Positions 23,037 to 57,649 of a stretch of DNA of 64,000 bases are shown here, piece by piece. Location: contig CAYWWW010000006.1 in the NCBI GenBank assembly GCA_964462205.1, positions 52,717 through 116,716 on the forward strand, in the 5' to 3' direction. Below the pieces are notes generated by a model. That model had not been told where the DNA came from. It made no database searches and was given only the letters and a program-made list of their open reading frames with translations. Position 1 is the first letter of the stretch; every line of letters begins with the position of its first letter. The position numbers and the translations under genes are program-made. The DNA comes from an uncultured Cardiobacteriales bacterium. GTDB taxonomy: Bacteria; Pseudomonadota; Gammaproteobacteria; CAYWWW01.

Positions 23037-23113
23037 TGGGGTGAATGACGGGGCTCGAACCCGCGGCCACAGGAATCACAATCCTGCGCTCTACCAACTG
23101 AGCTACATCCACC
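23037..23113 (-). tRNA. tRNA-His (anticodon GUG)
   Basis: Reverse complement gives G-1 GUGGAUG ... anticodon loop UUGUGAU ... CAUUCAC C CCA, with CCA encoded. Confidence 0.85.
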
Positions 23114-23175
23114 ATAGATAAATTTTTCGCCGCAAGCCACAACAGTAAATACACAATGCTAAACAGTATGCGTAT

Positions 23176-33820: not shown

Positions 33821-33834
33821 TCATTTATAGATAG

Positions 33835-34800
33835 ATGAAATATACTTTATTGTTCATTGCATTGCTTAGCGCTTGTACCATTTTGGCCGAGGAAAAAAAG
33901 CCTCCTTATTTTTATCTGGGTGAGATAACCCTTGGCTATAAATATCAGTTTTTACAGCCAGATGATATTGCTGAAGCCTATGTTAAAACTATCGGCTTAA
34001 ATCTTTTAAGCCTTGAATTAAATCTGCAAAAAGCCAGTTGGAGTAACAAATGGTCGAGGCTATTTTTACCCACATTAACTTATGAGTTCACCCCAAACAA
34101 TAGTGCTGAACAAAAGCAATTGATTGCATTAAATCAAGGTAGTAGCAATGCCAGCAGCCGCTTTGCCGCCGATCTTAACGCTGATATTGGTGAATTTTTT
34201 AATCGGCCAGATCGTCATTTTCTTGTTGGTTATTATGATCGGCAAGCCTTTTTATACAATGTACAAACTACTGATTTTTATTGGTTTTTCTCCAATAACC
34301 GCGCCACACTTTTATTGCCTGGTGATGCAATCAGCGTGGCTACGGTATTTGAACAAAGTCGCCTGGGTTATCGTCAACAACGCAAGCGTTGGCAAGCAGA
34401 GTTCGGTGCTTTTCAATTACGCTATCAAAAACCTTTACTCTCCCCCCTATTAACCAGCACCGATGCTTTATTTGAGTCCACTTTAAAATCCCAGGGTCTT
34501 TATTTTGGCGCAGGTTATTTTTATCGTGGAAAAAGCGGCGTTTTCTTAAATTATAACAAGGGTCTTCAATCTGATATTGAGTTGGTTGAAGGTTTTAGTC
34601 AGGCTTATAATCCTGCCAAAGATCGCACTGAGGATATTAACTTCTCTGCTTGGCAAATAGATATGGTATTGACCAGCACAGATTTTGGCTTGAAACGACT
34701 ACCCTTGCAGCTTATGACCAGTGTTATTTATCGGGATTTTGAAGGCTACAATGATGATTTAATTTACAGTATCAATATTATCTATCAAGTGAAGTTTTAA
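33835..34800 (+). CDS. Putative outer-membrane lipoprotein / beta-barrel protein
   Basis: Signal peptide with LSAC lipobox. The C-terminus ...INIIYQVKF ends in an aromatic residue, the usual beta-barrel outer-membrane protein signature. Confidence 0.45.
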   Translation: MKYTLLFIALLSACTILAEEKKPPYFYLGEITLGYKYQFLQPDDIAEAYVKTIGLNLLSLELNLQKASWSNKWSRLFLPTLTYEFTPNNSAEQKQLIALNQGSSNASSRFAADLNADIGEFFNRPDRHFLVGYYDRQAFLYNVQTTDFYWFFSNNRATLLLPGDAISVATVFEQSRLGYRQQRKRWQAEFGAFQLRYQKPLLSPLLTSTDALFESTLKSQGLYFGAGYFYRGKSGVFLNYNKGLQSDIELVEGFSQAYNPAKDRTEDINFSAWQIDMVLTSTDFGLKRLPLQLMTSVIYRDFEGYNDDLIYSINIIYQVKF

Positions 34801-34835
34801 CATTTTATCCTTTAATTTCCCATCATTTATCAATT

Positions 34836-37061: not shown

Positions 37062-37090
37062 CTATTTTTTTATAAACTTTTTAGGAAATT

Positions 37091-37513
37091 ATGCATTGTT
37101 TTTATCATCCCGATGCCGCTGCGGTGGCGACTTGTAAATCTTGTCAGCGTGGACTTTGCTTCGCTTGCGCAGTATCTCTACCCAACGCCGAACAACCGTT
37201 GGGCATGGCTTGCAAAGACCGTTGTGAAAACGAAGTCAATGAAGTCAACGCCTTGATCCAAAGCAACAAAAAATTAACCAAGGCGGCTCCTGGACAATTC
37301 AAAGCGAATGCCAATGTTTACTACAATCTCGCTTTTGGCAGTATTGCCTTAGCAAGTGTTTTCATTGGTTATGGCAGTTATGAACTAATTGTTTTTGATA
37401 GCTTTGGTTTAAGCACTTTTTTAATCGCTGGCGGCTTAATTTTCCTTTGGTCAGGCTTTGGCTATTGGCAAACTGCACAACGCTTAAAAAAAGCCAATCA
37501 ATCGCATGAATAA
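37091..37513 (+). CDS. B-box-type zinc-finger membrane protein
   Basis: CFYHPDAAAVATCKSCQRGLCFAC cysteine/histidine cluster at the N-terminus, followed by two or three predicted transmembrane helices. Confidence 0.5.
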   Translation: MHCFYHPDAAAVATCKSCQRGLCFACAVSLPNAEQPLGMACKDRCENEVNEVNALIQSNKKLTKAAPGQFKANANVYYNLAFGSIALASVFIGYGSYELIVFDSFGLSTFLIAGGLIFLWSGFGYWQTAQRLKKANQSHE

Positions 37514-37552
37514 ATCAAACGCTTAATTTATATCTTTATAAATCAAAATTTT

Positions 37553-38692
37553 ATGTCAGAACTACCGGCGCTCGAAAAAATTTTACCCTTGTTGCCGCCC
37601 GAAGAAACGCCTTGGTTGCGTGCCTTGGTAGCGCGTGATTATGGTGAGACTTTAGCGATTTTTAATCCACAAGCCTTTGTTTTACAAACACCTAAAGCGG
37701 CTATTCCCTGGCCAGAACAAGCGCCGGACAAACCCTGGCCAGAAATTTGCTTGTACTTACGCGCCAGTCAGCCGTTGAGCACAGAAGAGCTTGCTTGGTT
37801 AGAAAAATTTAAGCGTTTTTTTGCCACATTAACGCTACATCCCGTTTACTATCCGGGGGAAAAGCTATCCCTTTGGATGCATTGGCAATTAACGATATAT
37901 CTACGCAAAAAAATTTTTCATCACTTGGCGATGCCTTGCCAAATTAAGCCATTGATTGCTTTAGAAAATGCGCAAAGCCTATTGACCACAGCACCAGCAC
38001 AACGCGCCTGGCAACAACAGCAACAGCGCGCTTTAATTTTTTATTGTCAACAATACCGAAAAACAACGGAAAATCAGCAAACTGCCACAAGTCAACTACA
38101 AGCTATCGAACAGGCGAGCCAATTGGCCTTTGATCAGTTATCCAGCCGCTTAATACAGTTACAAAAAAATCAAAGCCCTAAGGAAATACTTTTCACTTGG
38201 CAACAAGATTTAAGCTATCAATCCTTAGCACAAGCCTTAGAAACAATAGCTATTTCTCTTGATTCTGCTTCGATCATAGCTTTAGCCGAACAACATTTAC
38301 AATGGCAAAAACAACCACGCTTTCGCTTGGAACGCTATAAAAAAAGCCGCTTCTCAGCAAAAAATCCTTGGGGAATCCTGCAAGAAATACTAAAACAAGG
38401 CGAGCGATTATTTCAGTCTTTATTATTCAGCACCTTAATTGGCATCATTGCTTGGGCTTTTGGCATTGACCACGGCATCTTGTTGACCTTTATTTTATTA
38501 AGCGCCTTCCTTTTAGGTTGGCGATTTCAGCTTAAAAAAACCATTTCTTATACTTTGATAGGCCGCACAACCTTTTTCAAAGCCTTGAGCGAATCCTGGC
38601 AAGCCTCAACAGCTTTTCAAAAAATTCAAACCCTTGTCCTTTGGGAACAATCATGTCCGCCGATATCCACCACGCGCAACGCCAAGCATTAG
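37553..38692 (+). CDS. Hypothetical Gln-rich protein with a C-terminal membrane anchor
   Basis: 379 aa. Gln-rich helical middle (QQQQQRALIFYCQQYRK). C-terminal hydrophobic helices LLFSTLIGIIAWAFGIDHGILLTFILLSAFLLGW. The 3' end overlaps the start of the downstream GTPase gene. Confidence 0.5.
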   Translation: MSELPALEKILPLLPPEETPWLRALVARDYGETLAIFNPQAFVLQTPKAAIPWPEQAPDKPWPEICLYLRASQPLSTEELAWLEKFKRFFATLTLHPVYYPGEKLSLWMHWQLTIYLRKKIFHHLAMPCQIKPLIALENAQSLLTTAPAQRAWQQQQQRALIFYCQQYRKTTENQQTATSQLQAIEQASQLAFDQLSSRLIQLQKNQSPKEILFTWQQDLSYQSLAQALETIAISLDSASIIALAEQHLQWQKQPRFRLERYKKSRFSAKNPWGILQEILKQGERLFQSLLFSTLIGIIAWAFGIDHGILLTFILLSAFLLGWRFQLKKTISYTLIGRTTFFKALSESWQASTAFQKIQTLVLWEQSCPPISTTRNAKH

Positions 38693-41520
38693 CCTTTGCT
38701 TGTGAGCGTTTATCCTTGTTTGTCAAAACATTAAATTTGCCTGTACAGCATCTGGATGAACAAACCAAGGTGATTCGTGAAGATCGTTTCAGAATTTTAG
38801 TGCTTGGGGAATTTAAGCGTGGAAAATCCACTTTAATCAATGCCTTGCTTCAGGAAGATTTACTTCCACATCAAGCCACCCCGGCCACGCCTTTACCCAT
38901 TCGCTTAGGTTATGGGGAAAAAAGAACTTTATTCTTAAAAAATCAACAGGGTGAACTTGAGGAACAGGCTTTTTCCAGCCTCAGCCAATTGCGCTTAAAA
39001 AGTGATGATCTTGGTCAAGATCGCTTTGGTCTATGGGAGGAAGCCTTGGTCACATTGCCCAATGCTTTTCTTTTACAAGGCATTGAAATTATTGACTCTC
39101 CGGGTTTACATGAGGATGCTTTACGCACCGCGCGGAGTGAAGCGGCTTTATTAAAGGCTGATGCCATCATCATGGTCTTGGATGCCACGCAGTTGCTTTC
39201 CAGTGCTGAACAAGCATTTTTAGAGAAATTACAAGCCTTTGGTAACGAAAATCTCTTTTTTGTCATCAATCGCTATGATGTCTTTTTGCAAAGCATTCCA
39301 ATGCCGCAACAGGCTGAACAACAAGCACAATTAACCGCACGCTTAAGCCATGCTTGGCAACGGCTCTGGCCAAAACAACAACCGCGTATTTTTTATTTAA
39401 GCGCTCTACAAGCCTTAAAAGCTGCACAACGTGGCCAAGAAGATAGCGATTTTGCTATTTTTTTGCTTCACCTTAAAAACTTTTTACAACAAGATCGTAT
39501 CCGCCAACGCAAACAACGCTTACTGGGGTTTTTTCAAGAAGAACAACGAACTTTACAACGTTATTGGCAAAAGCTCGATCAATTAACCCAGTTAAATCTT
39601 CACGAGGCGCTCCAACAAGAAGAAATGTTGCGCCGACAGATCAAACGCTTAGAAGAACAGCAGCAAAGTCTTACCATTTGGTTAAACAAACAACAAATAG
39701 AATGGCGGAAATGGTTAGGACAAGAGAAAAATTATCTTGAGAATCAATGGTTAAAACTTATTCAACAAACTATAGAAACAGCGCTCAGCGAAAAAACCTT
39801 CACTGCGAAAGAATTAAGCGAAAAACCTTTATTTGAACTCTTGCCGCATGGCGAACAAGTCTTAAAAACCGCTGCCGAAACTTGGCAACAAGAACGCTTA
39901 CAACCGCAACTTGAACTCACCCGTCAAGATTTGAAAAATTATTTAGCTAAGGAAATAGCACTTTATAAACAAACATTTACTTGGGATGACGAAGTAGAAA
40001 ATCAAGACTTACCCAGGCAGACAGCGCCCGAAAATTATGCACTGTCTCTCAATGTTGATAGCTTGGCGGCACGGCATTTTCTCTATGGTTTACCGCTGGT
40101 AAGTGGCGCGGGTATTTGGCTTATTGGCTTAAGCAGTTTTAGTTTACCGTTGGCTTTGGTGTTGGCTTTATTTGGTTTTGTGGTAGAACGGCAATTGCGC
40201 TGGCAAAAAATTCAAAAAGAATTAAGTAGTTATCTTAAGCCGGTGCTGGCAAACATCACTGAAAGTTTTATTCATGATCATGAAATTTATGTTTTAGAAA
40301 AATTAAAGCGCTGGCAACTGCCTTTTTCTGAGCTTTTACAAGAAATTCACAACACTACGGCGCGATTACGACAATTATTAAAGACAACCCAAGCGCAACG
40401 TCAGAATAATCAACAGCAAAATCAAGCGGCATTCAAGAAAAAACAACGTGAGGAAAGCGAAGCAAAAGAATTATTTCAAGCGATTTATGATCTTTTAAAC
40501 CAATGGCAACAGGTCAATGTCAGCAAAAAAACCTTATTTAACGGCGAGATTATCGAAGCCTTAGGCCAGCAACTCCCCGGTCTATTGCCGCAATTGCCAG
40601 CAAATTTATATGTTCGCGCTCAAGTGCTTATGCAGCAAATTGCCGATTGGCAAAATGAAAAAGCGCCGGCATTGTGGTGCTGTGGCAGCGCCGGCAGTAG
40701 TAAAAGTAGTATTGTGCAGTTTTTATTGGGTCAAGCCTTTTTGCCGCCGCCGGCTTTGGCAAATTTTGCCGGTCTTCTGCATTTTTCTCCAGGGGAAACT
40801 TGGCAGCTTTATGTTTTTTATCAAGAAAAGTTAAGCCATCAACAAACCATCTCTCCAGATCATGCCTTAGCGGTTTTGTTAGCAGAATTTGCTAAAAATC
40901 ATGATAGCGCTTGTTATCGTTATCAATTTACCGTGCCAGGTCTTACCTATCAACTCTATGATTGTCCAGCTTTTTTTAATGCACAGCATCCGCTCTGGCC
41001 GTATTTTCAAAAGCACAGTTGGCGGGCGCGAATTATCTATAGTTTGGATAGATTGGAACTCGGGCAGTTTTCAGAATTTTATCAACAAGTTTATAAAGAA
41101 AACAATTTATCAGCTTGGTTTTTCTGGTCAAGCACTGCCTTGTCTGCCAATCATCAAGAAACCTTGAAGAAGCACTTGGCTGATCGTTTTCATCCCCAGT
41201 GCATTCAGATGCTGTCGCCAAATTTAGCGCTTTTGAAACAAATACTTAATGCTAAAAGTTATCTTCCTTGGCAAGCGCTGTGGTCAGAAAATACTTTAAT
41301 GCAGTTTTTACTGCCCGGTTGGCAAGCAAAGCATCTTGATTTTTTTTGGCGGTTTTGGTTGCAATGGCGACTGCAAAAGGTCGCCTGTGCAGAGGTTTTA
41401 GAGGCTTGGCGGGGCAAGGTAGCGGATTTTCAACAGGAAGATCAACAGCAGTTGGAAAATAGGAGTTTGCTATTGGCCGCAAATTTGGCACCGTTATTGG
41501 ATAGCGGCCTTGGTCAGTGA
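38653..41520 (+). CDS. Dynamin-like GTPase (bacterial dynamin-like protein) with a membrane paddle and an extra C-terminal domain
   Basis: G1 LVLGEFKRGKSTLINALL, G3 IIDSPGLHE, G4 NRYD. Long coiled-coil stalk. Hydrophobic hairpin LPLVSGAGIWLIGLSSFSLPLALVLALFGFVV. The ORF track begins at a TTG at 38641; the first ATG is at 38653. Confidence 0.75.
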   Translation: MSADIHHAQRQALAFACERLSLFVKTLNLPVQHLDEQTKVIREDRFRILVLGEFKRGKSTLINALLQEDLLPHQATPATPLPIRLGYGEKRTLFLKNQQGELEEQAFSSLSQLRLKSDDLGQDRFGLWEEALVTLPNAFLLQGIEIIDSPGLHEDALRTARSEAALLKADAIIMVLDATQLLSSAEQAFLEKLQAFGNENLFFVINRYDVFLQSIPMPQQAEQQAQLTARLSHAWQRLWPKQQPRIFYLSALQALKAAQRGQEDSDFAIFLLHLKNFLQQDRIRQRKQRLLGFFQEEQRTLQRYWQKLDQLTQLNLHEALQQEEMLRRQIKRLEEQQQSLTIWLNKQQIEWRKWLGQEKNYLENQWLKLIQQTIETALSEKTFTAKELSEKPLFELLPHGEQVLKTAAETWQQERLQPQLELTRQDLKNYLAKEIALYKQTFTWDDEVENQDLPRQTAPENYALSLNVDSLAARHFLYGLPLVSGAGIWLIGLSSFSLPLALVLALFGFVVERQLRWQKIQKELSSYLKPVLANITESFIHDHEIYVLEKLKRWQLPFSELLQEIHNTTARLRQLLKTTQAQRQNNQQQNQAAFKKKQREESEAKELFQAIYDLLNQWQQVNVSKKTLFNGEIIEALGQQLPGLLPQLPANLYVRAQVLMQQIADWQNEKAPALWCCGSAGSSKSSIVQFLLGQAFLPPPALANFAGLLHFSPGETWQLYVFYQEKLSHQQTISPDHALAVLLAEFAKNHDSACYRYQFTVPGLTYQLYDCPAFFNAQHPLWPYFQKHSWRARIIYSLDRLELGQFSEFYQQVYKENNLSAWFFWSSTALSANHQETLKKHLADRFHPQCIQMLSPNLALLKQILNAKSYLPWQALWSENTLMQFLLPGWQAKHLDFFWRFWLQWRLQKVACAEVLEAWRGKVADFQQEDQQQLENRSLLLAANLAPLLDSGLGQ

Positions 41521-49613: not shown

Positions 49614-49736
49614 ATGCCGCTTCTTTATCTCTTATTGCTTACCTTAGCCGTGTCGAATTTGGTCGGCTGTGGTCAAAAAGGTGATCTGTACTTACCGAAA
49701 AGCACTACGTCCACTTTTATGCACAAGGCTCTATGA
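49614..49736 (+). CDS. lptM: Small LptM (YifL)-like lipoprotein, 40 aa, absent from the ORF track
   Basis: MPLLYLLLLTLAVSNLVGCGQKGDLYLPKSTTSTFMHKAL has a signal peptide, LVGC lipobox and the conserved GQKGDLYLP. Its stop overlaps the lysA-dapF start. The E. coli locus is yifL-dapF-yigA. Confidence 0.6.
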   Translation: MPLLYLLLLTLAVSNLVGCGQKGDLYLPKSTTSTFMHKAL

Positions 49737-51808
49737 CTTTTCATTATAAAAATCATCAACTTTTCTGTGAAGCACTGGCTTTAGAAACTTTAGCCACCGC
49801 GCATGGTACGCCCTTGTATGTCTATAGCGCCTCAGAAATTATTCAAAACTATCAAGCCTTTGATCAAGCATTAACTGCTGTACCGCATCATCTCTGCTAT
49901 GCTGTCAAAGCCAATGCCAACCTCTCGATTTTGGCGTTATTGGCCGAACAAGGGAGTTTTTTCGATGTGGTATCTATTGGCGAATTACAAAAAGTGGAAA
50001 CCGCTGGCGGCAAAGCCGCACAATGTATTTTTTCTGGCGTTGGCAAAGGCCTAGAGGAAATTGCCTATGCCTTAGAACAAGGCATCTTGACTTTAAACAT
50101 TGAATCGCTAGACGAATGGCAAGCTATTGAACAAGTTGCTAAAACCCACGGCGTAACCGCACCTGTGGCCATCCGCGTCAATCCTGATATTGATGCCAAA
50201 ACCCACCCTTATATTTCAACTGGCCTGAAAGAAAATAAATTTGGGATTGGGATGCCGGAGGCCGAAAAACTCTATCATCAGCTCAACGACAGCCAACACG
50301 CCGACATTCATGGTCTGGCGGCGCATATCGGTTCGCAAATGCTCGACCCGGCACCCTACCAAGCCGCTGCCCGCCGCCTACTCAGCCTCGCCGAGCGTCT
50401 TCAAGACAGAGGCATAAAACTCAAGCATCTGGATGTCGGTGGCGGCTTTGGCATTCGCTATCAGCAAGAACAACCACCCACGGCAACGGCTTGGTTTGCA
50501 CCACTATTAGCCGATTTTGCCGCTGCTGGTTTAACGATCTTGATTGAACCTGGCCGTGCGCTGGTTGGCAATGCCGGCGCACTGCTCACCCAGGTACGCT
50601 ATCGCAAGGAAAATCAAGGCAAACATTTTGCCATTGTGGATGCCGCGATGACGGAATTGCTGCGTCCCAGTCTCTATCAAGCACACCATGAAATTTTGCC
50701 GCTCAAGGCCGCCTTAGCCGAAAGTTATCCGCCGCTGGATATTGTTGGCCCGGTCTGCGAAAGCGGCGATTTTTTAGGCAAAAATCGGCAAATTCCCGCT
50801 GAAGTTGGCGATTTTTTAGCGATCTTAAGCACTGGTGCCTATGGCGCGGTCATGGCCTCGCAATACAATGCCCGACCGCTGGCTGCGGAAGTTTTAGTCT
50901 ATAAAAATCAAGCAGCAGTGATACGGCAACGGCAACCCTTGGCCGATTTATGGCGCTACGACACCTTGGCCAAACCTTGGACCAGCGCCGAAAAGCCGTT
51001 GCGTTTTCGCAAAATGCAAGCCTTAGGCAATGATTTTATTGTTATTGATCACCGTGAGCCGCGAGACTTCAAAACAGCAGACTGGCAAAAACTTGCCGAC
51101 CGGCATTTCGGTGTTGGTGCCGATCAGATTTTGCTGGTGGAAAAAAGCGCTGTCGCGGATTTTCGCTATCGCATCATCAATGCCGATGGCTCGGAAGTCG
51201 GCCAATGCGGCAACGGTGCGCGCTGTTTTATGGAATTTTTACGGCTGGAAGGTATCAGTCAGGCCGATACCGTGCGTGTTGAAACCTTAAGCGGCGCGAT
51301 GCTTCTGCATCGGGATGCCAAAGGAAATACTCGTGTGGACATGGGCTTAGCGCGTTTTGCGCCCAAAGCAATTCCCTTGGCGGTCGCCGAAGAACAAGCG
51401 GTTTATACCTTAAGCCTTGACGGTCAAGCACTTGACTTTCATGCGCTTTCCCTGGGGAATCCCCATGCGGTGTTCAAAGTCGAAGACGTAGATTTTGCGC
51501 CCGTCCAACAGCTCGGTGCGCGGCTTTCCGTACATCCGCTGTTTCCCGAACGTGCCAACATCGGTTTTATGCAGATCATTGACCACAACACTTTGAAATT
51601 GCGCGTATTTGAACGCGGTGCCGGGGAAACTTTAGCCTGTGGCAGTGGTGCCGCCGCCGCCGCGGTGATCGCCATACGCTTTTTTGGCGCGCACAGTCCC
51701 GTTCAGGTACAGCTACCTGGCGGCCGCTTAGAAATTTTCTGGGATGGCGGCGCGGTGATCTTGTGCGGGCCGGCCAGCAGCGTCTTTTCAGGAGAAATCG
51801 TTTTATGA
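49733..51808 (+). CDS. Apparent bifunctional diaminopimelate decarboxylase / diaminopimelate epimerase fusion (LysA-DapF)
   Basis: Residues 1-~410 align with LysA. Residues ~422-691 align with full-length DapF (LRFRKMQALGNDFIVID versus E. coli MQFSKMHGLGNDFMVVD; GQCGNGARCF active site). No stop codon between the two domains. Confidence 0.75.
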   Translation: MTFHYKNHQLFCEALALETLATAHGTPLYVYSASEIIQNYQAFDQALTAVPHHLCYAVKANANLSILALLAEQGSFFDVVSIGELQKVETAGGKAAQCIFSGVGKGLEEIAYALEQGILTLNIESLDEWQAIEQVAKTHGVTAPVAIRVNPDIDAKTHPYISTGLKENKFGIGMPEAEKLYHQLNDSQHADIHGLAAHIGSQMLDPAPYQAAARRLLSLAERLQDRGIKLKHLDVGGGFGIRYQQEQPPTATAWFAPLLADFAAAGLTILIEPGRALVGNAGALLTQVRYRKENQGKHFAIVDAAMTELLRPSLYQAHHEILPLKAALAESYPPLDIVGPVCESGDFLGKNRQIPAEVGDFLAILSTGAYGAVMASQYNARPLAAEVLVYKNQAAVIRQRQPLADLWRYDTLAKPWTSAEKPLRFRKMQALGNDFIVIDHREPRDFKTADWQKLADRHFGVGADQILLVEKSAVADFRYRIINADGSEVGQCGNGARCFMEFLRLEGISQADTVRVETLSGAMLLHRDAKGNTRVDMGLARFAPKAIPLAVAEEQAVYTLSLDGQALDFHALSLGNPHAVFKVEDVDFAPVQQLGARLSVHPLFPERANIGFMQIIDHNTLKLRVFERGAGETLACGSGAAAAAVIAIRFFGAHSPVQVQLPGGRLEIFWDGGAVILCGPASSVFSGEIVL

Positions 51809-52482
51809 ACGAAGCTGAAGTGTGTCAATATCTTGAAAATAATCCTGATTTTCTGCTTAAACATCCCGAAGTCTTGGCAAAACTGGAGTTATCCTTCAGT
51901 CAATCCGGCCTACCGTCGCTGCCGCTGTTGCGACTACAACAACTCCGCAGCCGCTTGGACGATTGTCAAAACGCCTTGCAGGGGGAACGGCAAAAGCAAG
52001 ACCTGCACAACCGCCGCTGCCGCGCCATGCAGCAGTTAGCGATAGAATTTTTGTATATTCAAAAAGTTGAAGAGCTGGTGGACAGCATTGATAGCATCTG
52101 TAGTGATGAAATGTCGGTGAGTAAAACCGTGCTGCGCTTTTGGCAAGCCGCGCCCGGCATTCCGGCCTCGTATCTCTTGCCGAAAATCAGCCAAAGTCCG
52201 CTCTTGCACCGCTTGGATCACGATGGCTTTTTTTGGGGTTCTCCGCCAAAAGCCGAGAAAAATCTCTTGGTTGCACAAGGTGATAACTTTGATAGTTTTG
52301 TTATGGCCGCCTTGAGCGATGCCCAGGAACATACCGTTGGCTTATTGGTTTGTGCAGGCCGCGATGCCACTTTATTAAATCAAGAACTGGATCGACCTTT
52401 TTTACGTTTCTTTCGGGATTTGGTTCGTCAAATGCTGATCAAATGCCTGCATCTCAATGACTTGGAACTCGGAAATGACTAA
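51805..52482 (+). CDS. yigA: DUF484 family protein (YigA-like)
   Basis: [24 protein letters not shown] matches the YigA N-terminus. Located downstream of dapF, as in E. coli. Confidence 0.7.
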
Positions 52483-53011
52483 TTTTCATGGCACCACCAT
52501 TCTTGCCGTGCGGCGCGGCCAAGACTTTGCCTTAGGCGGCGATGGCCAAGTAACCCTGGGCAATATCAAAATCAAAGGTAATGCTAATAAAATCAGAAAG
52601 CTGCACCAGGGAAAAATTATCGCTGGTTTTGCTGGCGGCACTGCCGATGCTTTTACTTTATTTGAACGCTTTGAAGCAAAACTTGCTGATTTTCAAGATC
52701 TTAAACGTGCCGCTGTCGAACTCGCCAAAGATTGGCGCAGCGATAGAGTTTTGCGCCGACTCGAAGCCATGCTGTTGCTGGGCGATGCCAATTATACCTT
52801 ACTTTTAAGTGGCGCTGGCGATGTTTTAGAACCTGATCAAGGGGTTATCGGTATTGGTTCTGGTGGTGCTTATGCGCAATCCGCCGGTTTAGCACTGTTA
52901 AAACATAGTGCTTTGACTGCTGAAAAAATTGTCGAAGAAAGTTTAACCATCGCCGCGAGTCTTTGTATTTACACCAATAATAATTTCACTATCGTCAATT
53001 TAGCCGCTTAA
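52475..53011 (+). CDS. hslV: ATP-dependent protease subunit HslV
   Basis: [43 protein letters not shown] is the HslV Thr-protease N-terminus. Confidence 0.95.
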
Positions 53012-53035: not shown

Positions 53036-54382
53036 ATGGAAAAAGACTCTTTTGATCATTTCACCCCGGAAGCGATTGTCCAAGAATTAGACCGTTTTAT
53101 CATTGGACAACAGGCTGCCAAATGTGCCGTTGCCATCGCTTTGCGTAACCGCTGGCGGCGTTTGCAATTGCCGGTAGCCTGGCAACGCGACATCACCCCG
53201 AAAAACATCTTGATGATAGGTCCCACCGGCGTTGGCAAAACCGAAATTGCGCGGCGTTTGGCGCGGTTAAGTGCAGCGCCATTTGTCAAAGTCGAAGCCA
53301 GCAAATTTACCGAAGTTGGTTATGTTGGTCGAGATGTTGATAGCATTATCAGGGACTTAGCCGAAGTCGCCTACCAATTGGCCGAAACACAGGCCAAAGC
53401 GCGGGTTCATGCGCAAGCGGTTGCGCAAGCCGAGGAAAAACTTCTGGATATTTTGTTACCGCGTCCGAAAAACATCAGTTTTGATGTCAGCGCTGACCAA
53501 CCGCCAGACAATACCCGTGAAAAATTTCGGCAAAAATTACGGCAAGGGCAGCTCGATGCCCGCGAAATTGACATTGACTTACCGGAAATCGGTGAAATGC
53601 AAGTCTTTGCGCCGCCGGGCTTGGAAGAAATGACCCAACAGTTTGAAAAATTATTTCAAAGTTTTCAACAACAACGCCAAAAAAAGCAGCGTCTGACTAT
53701 CGCCAAAGCCTGGCCATTATTGATAGATCAAGAAGCCAAACAACTCCTCAATACCGTCGAGGTCAAAAGCGCGGCTGTGCAACTGGCTGAAGAAAAAGGT
53801 ATTGTTTTCATTGACGAAATTGACAAAATCGCGCGTTCTCGTCAACAGCAGATGGGAGCCGATATTTCCGGTGAAGGCGTGCAGCGTGATTTATTACCGT
53901 TAATTGAAGGCAGTCGGGTGACGACGAAATATGGCGCAATCAATACTGATCATATTTTATTTATCACCTCAGGCGCGTTTCATGTCAGTAAACCTTCCGA
54001 TTTAATTCCAGAATTACAAGGACGCTTGCCGATTCGTGTGGAACTCAATGCTTTACAAAGCGCCGATTTTATTCGCATTTTACAAGAACCTGAGCATAGT
54101 TTATTAAAGCAATATCAAGCCTTATTACAAGTGGAAAAAGTCCAGTTGACTTTTAGTGACGATGGTATTGCGCGTATGGCAGAAGTGGCGTTTACCATGA
54201 ATCAACGCTTGGAAAATATCGGTGCGCGTCGCTTGCATACCGTGGTGGAAAAAGTTTTAGAAGAAGTCTCTTTCTTAGCGTCACATTATGCTAATCAAAC
54301 GGTTATAATTGATGCCGCTTTTGTGGATCGGCGTTTACAACCCGTGCTTGGCGATGAAAACCTTCAACACTATATTTTATAA
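53036..54382 (+). CDS. hslU: ATP-dependent protease ATPase subunit HslU
   Basis: TPEAIVQELDRFIIGQ...ILMIGPTGVGKTEIARRLA is the AAA+ HslU signature. Confidence 0.95.
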   Translation: MEKDSFDHFTPEAIVQELDRFIIGQQAAKCAVAIALRNRWRRLQLPVAWQRDITPKNILMIGPTGVGKTEIARRLARLSAAPFVKVEASKFTEVGYVGRDVDSIIRDLAEVAYQLAETQAKARVHAQAVAQAEEKLLDILLPRPKNISFDVSADQPPDNTREKFRQKLRQGQLDAREIDIDLPEIGEMQVFAPPGLEEMTQQFEKLFQSFQQQRQKKQRLTIAKAWPLLIDQEAKQLLNTVEVKSAAVQLAEEKGIVFIDEIDKIARSRQQQMGADISGEGVQRDLLPLIEGSRVTTKYGAINTDHILFITSGAFHVSKPSDLIPELQGRLPIRVELNALQSADFIRILQEPEHSLLKQYQALLQVEKVQLTFSDDGIARMAEVAFTMNQRLENIGARRLHTVVEKVLEEVSFLASHYANQTVIIDAAFVDRRLQPVLGDENLQHYIL

Positions 54383-54457: not shown

Positions 54458-54817
54458 ATGAGCAAACATCTTCCCACCGATTTAATTTTGGATCAAAAAT
54501 CCCGTGCTTTAGAAGTGCGTTTTGCCGATGGCAGTAGTTTTTCCCTCCCTTGTGAATACTTACGAGTATTTTCGCCGTCGGCGGAAGTCAAAGGCCACGG
54601 TCCCGGACAAGAAGTGCTGCAAATTCATAAGGAAAACGTCAATATCAGTGCCATTGAACCCGTCGGCAACTACGGCGTAAAACTCATTTTTAGCGACGGT
54701 CACGACACTGGCATTTACGACTGGAACTATTTGTATTTTCTCGGCATTGAACAAGAAAAAAACTGGCAAGGTTATCTAGCGCGTTTAAGTGCGGCGGGGA
54801 TTGCGCGGGGAAGTTGA
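54458..54817 (+). CDS. DUF971 (gamma-butyrobetaine hydroxylase-like N-terminal domain) protein
   Basis: FADGSSFSLPCEYLRVFSPSAEVKGHG...DGHDTGIYDWNYL is typical of DUF971. Confidence 0.7.
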   Translation: MSKHLPTDLILDQKSRALEVRFADGSSFSLPCEYLRVFSPSAEVKGHGPGQEVLQIHKENVNISAIEPVGNYGVKLIFSDGHDTGIYDWNYLYFLGIEQEKNWQGYLARLSAAGIARGS

Positions 54818-54960
54818 TCAATCTATGCATCCGTCACCAAGGTTACTGTTACATAAGACTATCCACTGATGTATTAAAAATAACTCTAGTGAAGAATTAA
54901 CTATAATCCTTCTTGATATCTTTAACCTTTATCAAAATCAAACTTGTACTTGGAGCGACA

Positions 54961-55656
54961 ATGGCAAAGTTTCTGAACACAAGCGCAACAAATTATTTTC
55001 TGGAAGAACTCATTAAAAGTGCCAAAGATCGGCTTATTTTAATTAGTCCTTTTCTTCGGCTCAACGATAGAATTAAAGAGCTTCTTGAAGACAAAAACCG
55101 CCTTAAAATTGATGTTCGGGTCGTTTATGGCAAAAACGAACTACAGCCCGAAGAAATCAATTGGTTAAAAGAGCTTACCTATCTAAGAACAAGTTTCTGC
55201 AAGAATCTTCATGCCAAGTGTTATCTGAATGAAGAGCTTTGCATTATCACAAGCCTGAATCTTTATGAGTTTAGCCAAGTAAATAACAACGAAATGGGGG
55301 TTCTGATTCGCCGCAGCGAAGACCATGAACTGTACAAAGAAGCCTACGAAGAAGCGCAACGCATCGTCCGCATCAGTGATGAAATACGCATCTCCGTAGA
55401 AACCATCAATAAAGAACCTGAAGCACCTGTGGAAACTGAAGAAAATACACCTGATAAACTCACTACTTCAAAACTAGCTCAAAAATTAGGAATAAAAACT
55501 AATGAACTGAATGATCGGCTGGTAAGGAATGGCTATCTGGAAGTAAAAGAAGGAAAACACTATATCACCGCCAAAGGCAAAGAAGTCGGCGGCGAATTTC
55601 GCAAGAGTACAAAATTCGGTCATTATTTTTTATGGCCTGAAAGTTTTCGACCATAA
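54961..55656 (+). CDS. Phospholipase D (HKD)-family nuclease-like protein with a C-terminal putative DNA-binding domain
   Basis: Single HxK(x)4D motif (LHAKCYLNEELCIITSLN). C-terminal basic region KLGIKTNELNDRLVRNGYLEVKEGKHYITAKGKEVGG. The gene and its flanks are AT-rich, with atypical AGA/AGG/ATA codons. Confidence 0.6.
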   Translation: MAKFLNTSATNYFLEELIKSAKDRLILISPFLRLNDRIKELLEDKNRLKIDVRVVYGKNELQPEEINWLKELTYLRTSFCKNLHAKCYLNEELCIITSLNLYEFSQVNNNEMGVLIRRSEDHELYKEAYEEAQRIVRISDEIRISVETINKEPEAPVETEENTPDKLTTSKLAQKLGIKTNELNDRLVRNGYLEVKEGKHYITAKGKEVGGEFRKSTKFGHYFLWPESFRP

Positions 55657-55722
55657 TTTTTTCATATTTTTCTGCATTTCACGTGCGTTTCTCTCAAATA
55701 ACATTTCACCATACAGAATTTT

Positions 55723-56469
55723 ATGAACAAAGATCAAGATGTTGATTTTGGCTATCAAAAAGTAAGCGCTGCTGAGAAAACCGAAAAAGTCCAAAGCGTC
55801 TTTCGCTCGGTTGCTCCCCGCTATGATTTAATGAACGATGTTATGTCTTTGGGGCTGCATCATCTGTGGAAAGATTTTGCGATAGATCGCCTATTATTAC
55901 GACCGGGGCTGCGGGTCTTGGATTTAGCAGCAGGCACTGGTGATTTAACTTGGCGTTTGGCCAAAAAACTCGGCAAGGAAAGCCAAATTATCGCCGCCGA
56001 TCTCAATGCCGAAATGCTGACTTTAGGGCGGGAACGGCTTTTCGATCAAGGTCATATTAAAACCAACTGGCTTTTGGCCAATGCCGAAGCACTGCCTTTG
56101 GCGGACAATAGCTTAGATCGTGCCATCATGGCCTTTGGTCTGCGTAATGTCACTGACAAAGCCCAAGCCTTGAGTGAACTTTATCGGGTGTTGACCCCAG
56201 GCGGCATCTTGGTGGTGTTGGAATTTTCGCATTTGCTCTTACCGTGGTTGCAGCCGGTTTATGATCTGTATTCCTTCCAAGTATTGCCGCGTCTGGGACA
56301 ACTATTGGCTAACGATTCACAAAGTTATCAATATCTTGCCGAATCCATCCGCCAGCATCCCAATCAAGAAAGTCTCAAAACTTTGCTTGAAATCGTCGGT
56401 TTTGAACAAGTCGAAGTATTTAATCTTAATGCTGGACTGGTGGCAGTCCATCGGGGCTATAAGCTATGA
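55723..56469 (+). CDS. ubiE: Ubiquinone/menaquinone C-methyltransferase UbiE
   Basis: FRSVAPRYDLMNDVMSLGLHHLWK and LDLAAGTGD are UbiE signatures. Confidence 0.95.
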   Translation: MNKDQDVDFGYQKVSAAEKTEKVQSVFRSVAPRYDLMNDVMSLGLHHLWKDFAIDRLLLRPGLRVLDLAAGTGDLTWRLAKKLGKESQIIAADLNAEMLTLGRERLFDQGHIKTNWLLANAEALPLADNSLDRAIMAFGLRNVTDKAQALSELYRVLTPGGILVVLEFSHLLLPWLQPVYDLYSFQVLPRLGQLLANDSQSYQYLAESIRQHPNQESLKTLLEIVGFEQVEVFNLNAGLVAVHRGYKL

Positions 56470-56993
56470 AAAATCTTAAAAATTTATTAAGCAAAAATAG
56501 ATCGAGTGCAACTGCCAAAAACACGCTTAGCGAAAAGGACTGGCGACGTTTGACCGAACAACCTTTTGGCACGCCGCGTTTAAGCCATCAACAGCCGGAA
56601 CTAGCCAACTTCAATCAACGGCTTGGCGCGTTATTCCTAGACGCTTGGCTAATCATTTTCCTCACGCTATGGCTTTGGTTGTTTTTTGGTGGTCAGTGGT
56701 GGTTTGCGCTGGCACTAGGGTTATTGTTGCCGTTGTTAAGCTGGCCGATTTTTAGCGCCACCCCTGGCCAATGGCTTATCGGCATTATGGTGCTTCAAGA
56801 AAAAACGTTGGCCAAAATTTCTTTTCAGCAAGCGGTGTTACGACTGATTGCCGGACTTTTTACCTTAGGCAGCGCTGGTATGTTGCGGCTGTGGCACGAT
56901 GCGCAAGACCGCGATATTGAGGCGCGGTTGAGCCATAGTCTGGTGGTGGTGGACAGCCTACGGCTTCTGGCGAAACGACGAGAAAGCCCATGA
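56466..56993 (+). CDS. RDD-family-like membrane protein inserted between ubiE and ubiJ
   Basis: 175 aa. Hydrophobic helices. GQWLIGIMVLQEK and RLWHDAQDRDIEARL resemble RDD-family conserved positions. 4-nt overlaps at both ends. Confidence 0.4.
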   Translation: MKNLKNLLSKNRSSATAKNTLSEKDWRRLTEQPFGTPRLSHQQPELANFNQRLGALFLDAWLIIFLTLWLWLFFGGQWWFALALGLLLPLLSWPIFSATPGQWLIGIMVLQEKTLAKISFQQAVLRLIAGLFTLGSAGMLRLWHDAQDRDIEARLSHSLVVVDSLRLLAKRRESP

Positions 56994-57649
56994 ATAATAA
57001 AAATTTTAATGCTTCATGGTGGCTTTGGCCTGGACAACAATTGCTCAATCAAGCGCTGCGCCTAGACCCAGGTTTTGGTGAACGCGCTAAAAATCTCGAA
57101 GGTAGTCATTTTTTACTTAATATTCAAGGTATTGGTAGTTTTTTATTGACCATTGACCAGGCGCAACTCAAGCTCTCAAACGCTAGGCCAAGCACGCCTG
57201 CTGAAGTGACGCTCACCGCCGCACCCTTCACTTTATGGCGGCTATTCCAGGGCGAAACGGCGCTTTTGGCTGACTGCGATTTACAAGGTGACAGTCGGCT
57301 GCTGGCACGCTGGCAGCGCTTGTTTCAAGACAGCACTGTGGACTGGGGAGAATATCTGTCGCGCTTTCTTGGCCTACCCTTGGCCAATTTTTTGGAAGCC
57401 AGTGCCGCAGCGCAAAGGCACTATTGGCAAGAGCGACAACAACGCCTGCACGAACAACTGCATGATTATCTTTGTTACGAGGGAAAAATTTTGGCCAATC
57501 CACAAGATATTCGCTTACTTCTCAATGCTATAGATGATCTGCGTAATGACCTGGCGCGTCTGGAACAACGCTTCACCCAACTCGAAAAAATCAAGGCAGC
57601 AGGCGACACCGCTGCCGGCGACACATCCGCTGGAGGCAATCATGCCTAG
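56990..57649 (+). CDS. ubiJ: Ubiquinone biosynthesis accessory factor UbiJ (SCP2 domain)
   Basis: SCP2-like N-terminal region and C-terminal coiled coil ([19 protein letters not shown]) align with E. coli YigP/UbiJ. Position between ubiE and ubiB. Confidence 0.7.

What the first reader, a model, noticed from the sequence alone, without database searches (positions are those of the whole stretch)
54830..55700. AT-rich, codon-atypical islet with a single-HKD phospholipase-D-family nuclease between a DUF971 gene and ubiE
The gene at 54961-55656 and its flanks are visibly more AT-rich than their surroundings and use AGA/AGG/ATA codons that are otherwise rare here. That pattern suggests horizontal acquisition. 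The protein has one HxK(x)4D motif (HAKCYLNEELCIITSLN), as in Nuc/BfiI-type nucleases that dimerize to form one active site. It also has a basic C-terminal region resembling a DNA-binding domain. Standalone PLD-family nucleases are recurrent components of anti-phage defence systems, so this may be a minimal single-gene defence or restriction-like nuclease.
Basis: partly seen in the sequence, partly recalled or inferred. Interest (0 to 1): 0.6.

Follow-up and report, generated by a model that had tools for sequence, protein, structure and literature searches.

The report
Acquired stand-alone PLD nuclease gene islet
A 905-base, AT-rich insert sits exactly at the junction of two housekeeping genes and carries one intact gene for a small DNA-cutting enzyme fused to a DNA-binding domain; this uncharacterised family travels on filamentous phages, conjugative plasmids and defence islands, so it most likely destroys foreign DNA.

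Summary
Window 54818-55722 is a 905-bp insert with GC 0.371, in the lowest 0.11% of same-size windows. Its one gene (54961-55656, 231 aa) fits the local codon usage worst of 49 genes. A syntenic relative has the empty site, with the DUF971 stop overlapping the ubiE start. A contig 97.7% identical from 5 nt upstream of ubiE carries a decayed type III R-M remnant at the same spot instead.

The protein has an N-terminal single-HKD PLD domain. The best structural matches are Nuc, NucT, Zucchini, SauUSI and BfiI. An acidic linker joins it to a basic C-terminal winged-helix domain of the KilAC/antirepressor type, not the DpnI type.

The family is very large and strongly conserved: 83-87% amino-acid identity across phyla, with synonymous sites saturated. 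It occurs in 73 viral contigs (62 with an inovirus Zot gene), in 621 plasmids (576 conjugative), and beside TIR, McrBC-like, AbiU-like and methyltransferase genes. It matches no known defence model over its full length and is PHROG 9329, "unknown function".

Horizontal acquisition is shown. The nuclease assignment is well supported. A defence or exclusion role is plausible but untested. I class it as a new variant of the known "PLD nuclease plus DNA-reader domain" kind.

The parts
54818..55722 (+). The whole inserted islet (905 bp), lying between the DUF971 stop codon and the ubiE start codon
   Evidence: It is absent from syntenic relative L034, where the DUF971 stop and the ubiE ATG overlap (CAATGAAT). 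GC is 0.371, in the lowest 0.11% of 905-bp windows. No flanking direct or inverted repeats stand out among the short, low-identity matches of the kind the tool warns are often chance, and no terminator-like site was found on the + strand.
54818..54960 (+). Upstream non-coding part of the insert. It holds a perfect TATAAT at 54902-54907 and a GGAG ribosome-binding site at 54952-55955 region (GGAG 54952-54955, 5 nt before the ATG)
   Evidence: Read directly from the sequence; GC is 0.32. The consensus scan called no promoter here because the -35 is weak, so the promoter is an inference. Only the last 10-20 nt, the ribosome-binding region, are conserved with homologous loci.
54961..55656 (+). Coding sequence for the 231-aa PLD-winged-helix nuclease
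   Evidence: ORF. An identical protein is on record (P0001). PHROG 9329 matches at 6e-108 over the full length. dN/dS is below 0.05 against homologues from other phyla.
54961..55380 (+). N-terminal PLD (single-HKD) catalytic domain, aa 1-140
   Evidence: Pfam PLDc_2 at 9.7e-10 over aa 15-129. The AF2 model has pLDDT above 90 over most of the domain. Foldseek against the PDB gives Nuc 1byr at 5e-8, NucT 6ehi, Zucchini 4ggk, SauUSI 7clg and BfiI 2c1l.
55210..55260 (+). Catalytic motif H84-x-K86-x4-E91-x6-S98-x-N100 (HAKCYLNEELCIITSLN)
   Evidence: Read from the sequence. K86 and S98 are invariant. H84, E91, N100 and E111 are conserved in at least 90% of 43 homologues.
55381..55452 (+). Acidic, disordered linker, aa 141-164
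   Evidence: pLDDT is below 50 for aa 145-163. Length and sequence vary across homologues. pI is 4.1.
55453..55653 (+). C-terminal basic winged helix-turn-helix domain with an extra beta-hairpin, aa 165-231 (conserved LTxKGKxxGGE and YFLWP)
   Evidence: PADLOC PDC-S69 N-terminal region at 8.8e-15. Pfam ANT/KilAC matches 14 of 33 members, best 7e-6, alongside HTH_45. Profile against PDB gives the winged helices of AdcR, DtxR/MntR-type and RbkR regulators. The domain model has pLDDT 82.8. Foldseek returns generic winged-helix matches and phage antirepressors. pI is 9.8.
55657..55722 (+). Downstream non-coding part of the insert, running into the ubiE start
   Evidence: GC is 0.29. No terminator-like site was found on the + strand. 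Homology to L115 resumes at 55718 and to L034 at about 55723.
54458..54817 (+). Left flank: DUF971 / GBBH-like_N gene (119 aa). Its last few codons differ from those of the relative
   Evidence: Pfam PF06155 at 7e-31. The alignment to L034 shows the C-terminus ...GIARGS* in the window against ...GITRSTQ* in the relative.
55723..56469 (+). Right flank: ubiE (248 aa)
   Evidence: Pfam Ubie_methyltran at 1.6e-83.

Best explanation
The islet is a horizontally acquired one-gene cargo. It encodes a cytoplasmic, stand-alone phospholipase-D-family endonuclease fused to a winged-helix DNA-binding domain.

**Proposed mechanism**
- *Inferred, by analogy with Nuc and BfiI:* two N-terminal domains dimerise. 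Each supplies His84, Lys86, Ser98, Asn100 and Glu91/Glu111 to one shared, metal-independent active site. That site cuts phosphodiester bonds through a covalent phospho-histidine intermediate.
- *Inferred:* the two basic KilAC-type winged-helix domains sit on flexible acidic linkers. They bring the enzyme to its nucleic-acid target, and probably restrain it until that target is bound.
- *Inferred from context:* the role is to destroy incoming foreign DNA, from phages or rival plasmids and phages. This is a restriction-like single-gene immunity or exclusion function. Filamentous phages, conjugative plasmids and defence islands carry it as an accessory gene.
- *Not known:* how the enzyme spares its own genome. 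No methyltransferase is linked to it in the window. Because the protein is nearly invariant across phyla, the feature it reads is probably universal (a DNA modification or a DNA form) rather than a host-specific sequence.

**Shown here**
- The gene was inserted.
- The fold and catalytic residues are those of PLD nucleases.
- The C-terminal domain has a winged-helix fold.
- The family is mobile and under strong purifying selection.
For: **Insertion**
- Relative L034 has the empty site.
- Composition and codon usage are outliers.
- In L115, whose DNA is 97.7% identical to the window from 5 nt upstream of the ubiE start through ubiE into the next gene (928 bp), a decayed type III R-M remnant occupies the same spot.

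**Enzyme**
- PLDc_2 match.
- Conserved H, K, E, S, N and E residues.
- The structure model's best matches are Nuc, NucT, Zucchini, SauUSI and BfiI.
- There is one HKD per chain, and I saw no signal or transmembrane segment when reading the sequence.

**DNA-binding domain**
-.
- The same domain is fused to a different nuclease fold (DUF2726) on a Vibrio plasmid.
- The PLD module is combined with other C-termini in many 50%-identity clusters.

**Mobility and context**
- More than 7,600 homologues.
- Each of the nine distinct contexts looked up (seven by the look-up of encoding contigs, two more on plasmids) is different. They include an inovirus prophage, an IS3 element, ThsB/TIR, an McrBC-like pair with LexA and PemK, a Cas9 gene nearby, a type II methyltransferase-DUF3800-PLD-AbiU-like row, and plasmid accessory regions.
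- 621 plasmids carry it, 576 of them conjugative.
- 73 IMG/VR contigs carry it, 62 with Zot within 8 kb.
- 7 Vibrio inoviruses carry it.
- The gene is AT-richer than its surroundings in 8 of 9 loci.

**Selection**
- dN is 0.08-0.12 while pS is 0.71-0.87, which is saturated.
- DNA similarity between copies stops at the ORF plus its ribosome-binding site.

**Precedent**
- Single-gene PLD nucleases with a C-terminal reader domain do defend against phages: END nucleases (PMC12191111) and the PLD-wH class (PMC11037411).
Against: - There is no experimental datum for any member of this family. PHROGs lists it as unknown function.
- PADLOC v2 and NCBIfam have no full-length model for it.
- The defence-island association is qualitative, resting on about ten loci and not on an enrichment test.
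- Defence genes usually evolve fast. This one is far more conserved across phyla (83-87%) than the adjacent HslU, UbiE and UbiB are across gammaproteobacterial orders (43-66%). That fits poorly with an arms race.
- A constitutively active nuclease with no partner should be toxic, and I found no gating mechanism.
- The family's commonest recognisable homes are inoviruses and conjugative plasmids. The function may therefore serve those elements rather than the cell.
Confidence: 0.6

Rival explanations
1. It is a modification-dependent (type IV) restriction enzyme of the published PLD-wH class. The winged helix would read N6-methyladenine in the Dam G(m6A)TC context and the PLD domain would cut nearby.
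For: - The domain order matches PLD-wH (Aba4572I, CbaI; PMC11037411).
- It stands alone with no linked methyltransferase in the window.
- That paper argues that stand-alone wH-nuclease fusions are likely to read modified DNA.
Against: - The C-terminal domain shows no DpnI-type signal. None of 33 members hits a DpnI-type Pfam model. The profile finds no DpnI chain in the PDB at E up to 10. DpnI is not among the top 50 Foldseek matches. The matches that do appear are KilAC/antirepressor and generic winged helices.
- Full-length relatives live in hosts that are Dam-positive by established knowledge. These are Vibrio parahaemolyticus inoviruses at 64-67% identity, an Aeromonas plasmid at 75%, and Klebsiella, E. 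coli and Salmonella plasmids at 43%.
- Dependence on some other modification is not excluded.
Confidence: 0.12
2. It is primarily a tool of mobile elements that enter cells as single-stranded DNA (filamentous phages, conjugative plasmids). It might exclude competing elements, or process DNA in the element's own life cycle. The chromosomal copy here would be a stranded cargo gene with little benefit to the host.
For: - 62 of 73 viral contigs carrying it have a Zot gene.
- In Vibrio inoviruses it lies in the cargo region downstream of zot, toward the regulator, with one intervening gene in vB_VipaK.
- 576 of 621 plasmid records are conjugative.
- The strong conservation suggests a fixed molecular target.
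- By established knowledge, PLD nucleases such as Zucchini, PLD3/4 and SauUSI act on single-stranded substrates.
Against: - The window copy is intact and keeps all catalytic residues.
- Many copies lie in chromosomal defence islands with no phage or plasmid genes nearby.
- No conserved partner gene or phage module travels with it.
- This rival overlaps the best explanation, because exclusion is a form of defence.
Confidence: 0.2
3. It is the nuclease of a classical restriction-modification pair, like BfiI. Its protective methyltransferase would be encoded elsewhere in the genome.
For: - BfiI and NgoAVII are PLD-family restriction enzymes. BfiI is among the structural matches.
- In L112 an 86%-identical homologue lies two genes from a type II methyltransferase.
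- Methyltransferases lie within 3 kb on the Aeromonas plasmid and on R27.
Against: - Those methyltransferases belong to three unrelated families (Eco57I-like, EcoRI-like, C5). Most contexts, including the window, have none.
- A single gene that hops alone between phyla could not depend on a specific partner.
- The C-terminal domain is not the B3-like barrel of BfiI.
Confidence: 0.06
4. It is a lipid-metabolising PLD (cardiolipin or phosphatidylserine synthase-like), as some automatic annotations say.
For: - JGI's automatic name is 'phosphatidylserine/phosphatidylglycerophosphate/cardiolipin synthase-like enzyme'.
- PssA structures appear among weaker matches.
Against: - It has one HKD motif, not two.
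- It is only 231 aa, and I saw no membrane segment when reading the sequence.
- It is fused to a winged-helix DNA-binding domain.
- The best structural matches are nucleases.
- It is carried by phages and plasmids.
Confidence: 0.02

Closest known systems
PLD-wH fusion endonucleases (Aba4572I, CbaI) of Helbrecht et al. 2024 (PMC11037411)
   Same: Same domain order: an N-terminal single-HKD PLD nuclease and a C-terminal winged helix. Both are stand-alone genes without a dedicated methyltransferase. Both are predicted restriction-like function. Neither has been purified or shown active in vitro.
   Different: - That class was defined through DpnI-like winged helices that read G(m6A)TC, and only 27 members were reported.
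- Here the winged helix is KilAC/antirepressor-like with an extra hairpin and shows no DpnI signal.
- This family has thousands of members and lives in Dam-positive hosts.
- I could not obtain the published sequences, so direct homology was not tested.
END nucleases (END-PaCF1; PMC12191111)
   Same: A single-gene anti-phage system built from an N-terminal BfiI/SauUSI-like PLD nuclease and a C-terminal sensor domain. It has no methyltransferase. PADLOC and DefenseFinder missed it when it was discovered.
   Different: The END sensor is an inactivated endonuclease III domain that reads hypermodified bases. Here the C-terminal domain is a 65-aa winged helix. The END authors mention PLD-wHTH combinations only in passing.
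BfiI / NgoAVII type IIS restriction enzymes
   Same: Single-HKD PLD nuclease. By established knowledge it dimerises to give one active site and is metal-independent. A separate C-terminal DNA-recognition domain is joined by a linker. BfiI (2c1l) is a structural match at E = 1.6e-5.
   Different: The BfiI C-terminal domain is a B3-like pseudobarrel, and the enzyme has cognate methyltransferases. Neither is present here.
Nuc (pKM101 / Salmonella, PDB 1byr) and NucT (H. pylori, 6ehi)
   Same: These are the best structural matches (E = 5e-8 and 1e-7, target TM-score 0.71-0.74). They are minimal one-HKD nucleases, and Nuc is plasmid-borne.
   Different: By established knowledge Nuc and NucT are exported, non-specific nucleases with signal peptides and no DNA-binding domain. 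The protein here has no signal peptide by my reading and does have a winged-helix domain. Sequence identity is only about 15%.
PLD components of multi-gene defence systems (DISARM DrmC, Mokosh MkoB/MkoC, Dpd DpdK)
   Same: Weak PLD-domain similarity: DrmC 4e-7, MkoB 2e-8, NCBIfam DrmC_I 33.8 bits.
   Different: The scores fall far below the family cut-offs (33.8 against 133 bits). None of the partner genes is nearby.
PADLOC candidate PDC-S69
   Same: The first ~65 residues of the PDC-S69 model match the C-terminal domain here at E = 8.8e-15. The DNA-binding module is therefore shared with a candidate single-gene defence protein.
   Different: Only that domain matches. The rest of PDC-S69 (about 220 residues) is unrelated to PLD, and the domain order is reversed.

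Membership tests
PLD superfamily (Pfam PLDc_2, PF13091) | HxK(x)4D(x)6G/SxN catalytic motif within a PLD fold | tested here: met
   PLDc_2 scores 38.8 bits against a cut-off of 27. The motif is H84-K86-E91-S98-N100, with Glu in place of Asp, and is conserved in homologues. The PLD fold is confirmed by Foldseek.
Single-HKD dimeric PLD nucleases (Nuc / BfiI / Zucchini type) | One HKD motif per chain | tested here: met
   There is one PLDc_2 stretch. The best structural matches are one-HKD nucleases.
Single-HKD dimeric PLD nucleases (Nuc / BfiI / Zucchini type) | Homodimer forming one composite active site; metal-independent nuclease activity | not testable with these tools
   No multimer prediction or biochemistry was available. 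This step is inferred by analogy.
Nuc / NucT exported nucleases | N-terminal signal peptide (periplasmic or secreted enzyme) | tested here: not met
   The N-terminus MAKFLNTSATNYFLEELIKSAKDRL is polar and forms a strand then a helix of the domain core. I read this from the sequence and ran no signal-peptide predictor.
PLD-wH modification-dependent endonucleases (Helbrecht 2024) | N-terminal PLD nuclease plus C-terminal winged-helix domain in one chain | tested here: met
   Domain models and fold searches.
PLD-wH modification-dependent endonucleases (Helbrecht 2024) | Winged helix of the DpnI type, carrying the m6A / GATC recognition motif | tested here: not met
   None of 33 members hits a DpnI-type Pfam model at E up to 0.1. 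No DpnI chain appears in the PDB profile search at E up to 10. DpnI is not in the top 50 Foldseek matches. A direct superposition on 4KYW could not be run.
PLD-wH modification-dependent endonucleases (Helbrecht 2024) | Avoidance of genomes that carry Dam methylation | tested here: not met
   Full-length relatives occur in Vibrio inoviruses and in plasmids of Aeromonas, Klebsiella, E. coli and Salmonella. That these hosts are Dam-positive is established knowledge and was not tested here.
BfiI-type type IIS R-M | B3-like pseudobarrel DNA-recognition domain and adjacent methyltransferase(s) | tested here: not met
   The C-terminal domain is a winged helix. The neighbours are DUF971 and the quinone methyltransferase UbiE.
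END nucleases | C-terminal inactivated endonuclease III (iEndoIII) sensor | tested here: not met
   No EndoIII/OGG signal in Pfam or PDB searches, and the domain is a 65-aa winged helix.
DISARM DrmC | Score above the NCBIfam equivalog cut-off, and presence of drmA/drmB/methyltransferase neighbours | tested here: not met
   NF038319 scores 33.8 bits against a cut-off of 133. No such neighbours are present.
Mokosh (MkoB / MkoC) | Full-length match and an associated MkoA helicase | tested here: not met
   Only the PLD core matches (profile positions 309-446 of 610, E = 1.8e-8). There is no helicase partner next to the gene.
Lipid PLDs (cardiolipin / phosphatidylserine synthases) | Two HKD motifs in one chain, usually with membrane association | tested here: not met
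   One HKD, 231 aa, fused to a DNA-binding domain.
Known anti-phage defence systems (PADLOC-DB v2.0.0) | Full-length match to a system model | tested here: not met
   Only partial-domain matches were found. Newer releases of PADLOC or DefenseFinder could not be searched.

The most novel reading that the evidence does not exclude
This would be an unrecognised, nearly invariant one-gene nuclease module that specialises in mobile elements entering cells as single-stranded DNA (inoviruses and conjugative plasmids). Its KilAC-type winged helix, with the conserved LTxKGKxxGGE and YFLWP hairpin, would read a universal DNA feature rather than a sequence. That feature could be a modification or a replication or entry intermediate. 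This would explain why the same protein works unchanged from Campylobacterota to Alpha-, Beta- and Gammaproteobacteria and Desulfobacterota. In addition, the DUF971|ubiE junction in this lineage would be a recombinase-free hotspot where single defence cassettes (the PLD nuclease here, type III R-M in a 97.7% relative) are exchanged.
Probability: 0.2. Interest if true: 0.7.

Novelty: new variant of a known kind. Interest (0 to 1): 0.5.

Why it matters
If the prediction holds, this is one of the most widespread single-gene nucleases still missing from defence catalogues. More than 7,600 relatives were scored. It occurs on hundreds of clinical Klebsiella, E. coli and Salmonella conjugative plasmids and in Vibrio parahaemolyticus inoviruses.

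- A nuclease that filamentous phages and plasmids bring with them could shape which other phages and plasmids a cell accepts. That bears on phage therapy and on the spread of resistance plasmids.
- Its unusual conservation raises a clear, testable question: what universal feature of DNA does the winged-helix domain read, and how is self-DNA spared without a methyltransferase?
- The locus is also a clean natural example of a single gene inserted at a 4-nt gene overlap with no mobility gene. A different defence remnant sits at the same point in a near-identical relative.

Tried and rejected
1. **Transposon, integron or homing element.** Repeat searches of the insert and its flanks returned only short, low-identity matches of the kind the tool warns are often chance. 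blastn against 110+ homologous loci shows similarity confined to the ORF plus 10-20 nt of ribosome-binding site. The nine distinct contexts looked up are all different from one another, so homing to a fixed site is rejected.
2. **LexA/SOS control.** One homologue lies next to lexA, which raised the idea. The only candidate box upstream (CTGT-N8-ACTA, near 54847) fits the consensus poorly, so I dropped it.
3. **A conserved partner or immunity gene.** Clustering ORFs within 900 nt of the gene in 73 viral loci found only phage core and regulator genes of the Vibrio group.
4. **Homologue search with the C-terminal domain alone**. It returned only short fragments and was uninformative. tblastn against plasmids worked better and found the DUF2726 fusion.
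5. **Close relatives through the two public contig scans with UbiE**. Only relatives at 56% identity or less were found. The informative relatives came from exact-cluster look-ups of HslU and UbiE instead.
6. **DUF971-ubiE as a general hotspot in other Gammaproteobacteria.** Four distant loci have 2-4 kb between the two genes, but the content is metabolic or unknown, not defence. The hotspot idea is therefore limited to the window's own lineage.
8. **Literature.** I found no paper on this family. The Vibrio inovirus paper does not discuss the gene.
Full report
**1. What is at the coordinates**

The region lies in a conserved row of genes:
- hslV (52457-53011)
- hslU (53036-54382)
- a DUF971/GBBH-like_N gene (54458-54817)
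- the gene in question (54961-55656, +, 231 aa)
- ubiE (55723-56469)
- an RDD-family gene
- ubiJ (SCP2)
- ubiB

The gene starts at the ATG at 54961, which a GGAG precedes by 5 nt. The longer TTG start that the ORF list offers is not used by any homologue.

**2. The compositional claim**

- The window GC is 0.462. The gene GC is 0.384-0.389 (the longer TTG-start ORF versus the ATG-start gene), with GC3 0.355.
- The 905-bp stretch between the DUF971 stop and the ubiE start has GC 0.371. Only 0.11% of all 905-bp windows in the 64 kb are as low, and almost all of those overlap the stretch itself.
- A leave-one-out synonymous-codon likelihood ranks the gene last of 49 (z = -2.9).
- AGA/AGG are enriched: 3 of 15 Arg codons against 5% elsewhere (p = 0.039).
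- ATA is not enriched: 2 of 16 against 7% (p = 0.32).

The observation therefore holds apart from the ATA detail.

**3. Proof of insertion**

An exact-cluster look-up of the window's HslU found a JGI metagenome contig, L034, with the same gene order over 13 kb: pheT, an HU/IHF-type DNA-binding protein gene, merR, a lysA-dapF fusion, DUF484, hslVU, DUF971, ubiE, RDD, ubiJ, ubiB and a UvrD-family helicase. It is about 80% identical in DNA and about 90% identical close to the junction.
- In L034 the DUF971 stop and the ubiE start overlap (CAATGAAT), and the 905 bp are absent.
- Twelve more distant gammaproteobacterial loci also have DUF971 directly upstream of ubiE. None of the 48 ubiE loci examined contains a relative of the gene.

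A second relative is more telling. L115 is a 1.8-kb Logan contig.
- Its DNA is 97.7% identical to the window from position 55718 (5 nt before the ubiE ATG) through ubiE and into the next gene, 928 bp in all.
- The 892 bp upstream are unrelated to both the PLD gene and DUF971.
- They encode the C-terminal motif of an N6/N4 DNA methyltransferase. This is followed by the C-terminal endonuclease part of a type III Res subunit, interrupted by a stop. The Res part is 65-68% identical to the res gene of mod-res pairs on Aminobacter and Sinorhizobium plasmids.

So three states of one site exist in one lineage: empty, PLD nuclease, and decayed R-M. One caution applies: L115 is a short metagenomic contig. 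However, its breakpoint coincides with the insert's right edge to within a few bases, which argues against a random chimera.

**4. No sign of how it moved**

- The insert has no flanking repeats that stand out from the short, low-identity matches the tool flags as often chance. It also has no recombinase gene and no terminator-like site on the + strand.
- Across 110+ homologous loci, DNA similarity covers only the ORF and 10-20 nt of ribosome-binding site.
- In Desulfonatronum the gene is bracketed by 523-bp direct repeats that are 91% identical, formed by a duplicated ACT-domain gene whose downstream copy is broken. This looks like integration by homologous recombination with flanking DNA.

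The mechanism in the window remains unknown. Only an insertion exactly at the 4-nt overlap leaves both flanking genes intact, and that may explain the sharp boundaries.

**5. The protein**

*N-terminal domain.*
- Residues 15-129 match Pfam PLDc_2.
- The motif is H84-x-K86-x4-E91-x6-S98-x-N100, with Glu where the canonical motif has Asp. K86 and S98 are invariant. H84, E91, N100 and E111 are at least 90% conserved in 43 diverse homologues.
- An AlphaFold2 model has mean pLDDT 86.7. Residues 145-163 are disordered.
- Foldseek against the PDB puts the one-HKD nucleases first: Nuc (1byr, 5e-8), NucT, Zucchini, SauUSI and BfiI. Lipid synthases score lower.
- I saw no signal peptide or membrane segment when reading the sequence.

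*C-terminal domain.*
- Residues 165-231 are basic (pI 9.8) and follow an acidic linker.
- Modelled alone (pLDDT 82.8), they form a winged helix-turn-helix with an extra beta-hairpin.
- Sequence profiles link them to the KilAC/antirepressor domain (14 of 33 members, best 7e-6), to HTH_45, and to DtxR/MntR/MarR-type winged helices.
- Fold searches return generic winged helices and phage antirepressors.
- The domain matches the N-terminal ~65 positions of the PADLOC candidate PDC-S69 (8.8e-15).
- On a Vibrio alginolyticus plasmid it is fused to a DUF2726 nuclease-fold protein instead.
- Conversely, the PLD module is joined to other C-termini in many 50%-identity clusters.

This is the modular "nuclease plus reader" layout of restriction-like enzymes.

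**6. The family**

There are 225 clusters at 50% identity with E of 1e-30 or better.
- The closest relatives are 79-87% identical. Those that carry a name come from Beta-, Gamma- and Alphaproteobacteria, Desulfonatronum and Campylobacterota.
- Synonymous sites between these copies are saturated (pS 0.71-0.87) while dN is 0.08-0.12, so dN/dS is below 0.05. These are therefore not recent transfers of one allele. The protein is under unusually strong constraint.
- For comparison, the window's HslU, UbiE and UbiB are only 43-66% identical to those of other gammaproteobacterial orders.
- The gene is AT-richer than its surroundings in 8 of 9 loci checked.

**7. Where the family lives**

| Setting | Finding |
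|---|---|
| IMG/VR viral contigs | 73 carry it, nearly all 5-17 kb; 62 have an inovirus Zot gene within 8 kb |
| Vibrio inoviruses | 7 carry it, annotated "DNA repair protein", in the cargo region downstream of zot toward the regulator (one intervening gene in vB_VipaK) |
| Methyloterricola | the copy abuts an inovirus prophage |
| Plasmids | 621 carry it, 576 predicted conjugative; they include R27 and hundreds of Klebsiella plasmids at about 43% identity |
| Chromosomes | it sits beside an IS3 element; ThsB-like and TIR genes; an McrBC-like pair with LexA and PemK; a type II methyltransferase-DUF3800-PLD-AbiU-like row; and 4 kb from Cas9 |

PHROGs holds the family as phrog_9329, "unknown function". 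PADLOC v2 and NCBIfam give only weak partial matches to DrmC and MkoB, far below their cut-offs.

**8. How it most likely works**

*Shown:*
- The gene was horizontally inserted.
- The PLD-nuclease fold has intact catalytic residues.
- A winged-helix domain sits on a flexible linker.
- The family is mobile and under purifying selection.

*Inferred by analogy with Nuc and BfiI (established knowledge):*
- Two chains dimerise to form one metal-independent active site, which cuts through a phospho-histidine intermediate.
- The two winged helices recruit the enzyme to its substrate, and may restrain it.

*Inferred from context:*
- The substrate is incoming foreign nucleic acid, so the gene is a one-gene restriction-like immunity or exclusion factor.

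*Unknown:*
- How self-DNA is spared.

I put the overall defence or exclusion reading at about 0.6, the nuclease assignment at about 0.85, and horizontal acquisition above 0.95.

**9. Comparison with what is known**

- The architecture equals the PLD-wH class of predicted type IV enzymes (PMC11037411). That class was defined through DpnI-like, m6A-reading winged helices, and only 27 members were reported.
- Here no DpnI-type signal is found. Relatives also live in Dam-positive hosts (Dam status is from established knowledge). Membership in that functional class is therefore not supported, even though the enzyme may work similarly.
- END nucleases (PMC12191111) are the best experimental precedent for a single-gene PLD nuclease with a C-terminal sensor. 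Their sensor is an inactivated EndoIII domain.
- BfiI has a different DNA-binding fold and cognate methyltransferases.
- Nuc and NucT are exported and lack a DNA-binding domain.

I conclude that this is a new variant of a known kind.

**10. Verdict**

- Its inference of horizontal transfer is now demonstrated.
- Its nuclease assignment is supported.
- Its defence idea is reasonable but untested.

- the exact empty site;
- the alternative R-M remnant at the same junction in a near-identical relative;
- the family's strong link to inoviruses and conjugative plasmids;
- its striking cross-phylum conservation.

Interest is moderate (0.5).

Noticed in passing
L115:1-892 (Logan ERR14790935_16844), equivalent to the position just upstream of window 55718: The DNA of this contig is 97.7% identical to the window from 5 nt upstream of ubiE onward (928 bp). 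At the exact place of the PLD islet it carries a decayed type III restriction-modification remnant instead: a Mod C-terminal motif plus a Res C-terminal endonuclease with an internal stop. This suggests turnover of defence cargo at this junction. The contig is short, so chimerism is not excluded.
   Followed up: partly
window 32798-41520: A second low-GC block of about 9 kb (GC 0.38-0.43) lies between plsY and thrS. It encodes an SH3_3 protein, a 741-aa PKD-domain protein, three proteins with no Pfam match and a 959-aa dynamin-family GTPase. It may be another acquired island or a bacterial dynamin-like operon.
   Followed up: no
L002:5099-5618 and L002:6766-7286 (Desulfonatronum thiosulfatophilum FMXO01000012.1): The PLD homologue there is bracketed by 523-bp direct repeats that are 91% identical. 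They come from a duplicated ACT-domain gene whose downstream copy is frameshifted. This hints at integration by homologous recombination with flanking DNA.
   Followed up: partly
L112:2162-2959 and L032:6988-8034 (plasmid R27): A DUF3800 gene lies immediately next to the PLD gene in two very different contexts: an 86%-identical chromosomal copy and the 43%-identical R27 plasmid copy. DUF3800 has no PADLOC match. It may be a recurrent partner.
   Followed up: no
L031:492-1115 (Vibrio phage vB_VipaK) and L036:4837-5391 (Aeromonas caviae plasmid p1): A small 3'-5' exonuclease gene lies close to the PLD gene in both a Vibrio inovirus and an Aeromonas conjugative plasmid. 13 of 73 viral loci carry a relative of it.
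   Followed up: no
window 49733-51808: This is a 691-aa fusion protein. An N-terminal diaminopimelate decarboxylase (LysA-type PLP decarboxylase domains) is joined to a C-terminal diaminopimelate epimerase (DapF). The fusion is conserved in relative L034.
   Followed up: partly
window 56466-56993: An RDD-family membrane protein gene is wedged between ubiE and ubiJ and overlaps both by 4 nt. It is also present in relative L034, but tblastn at E <= 1e-6 found no match to it in any of the 48 distant ubiE loci.
   Followed up: no
window 22724-23140 (-) and 56990-57649 (+): Two further codon-usage outliers: a 138-aa ORF with no Pfam match (z = -2.5) and ubiJ (z = -2.4).
   Followed up: no
L035:4452-5213 (Vibrio alginolyticus plasmid pAUSMDU00064140): A 253-aa DUF2726 (restriction-endonuclease-fold) protein carries the same C-terminal winged-helix domain as the PLD protein (39% identity, E = 3e-8). 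This is a second nuclease-reader combination.
   Followed up: partly
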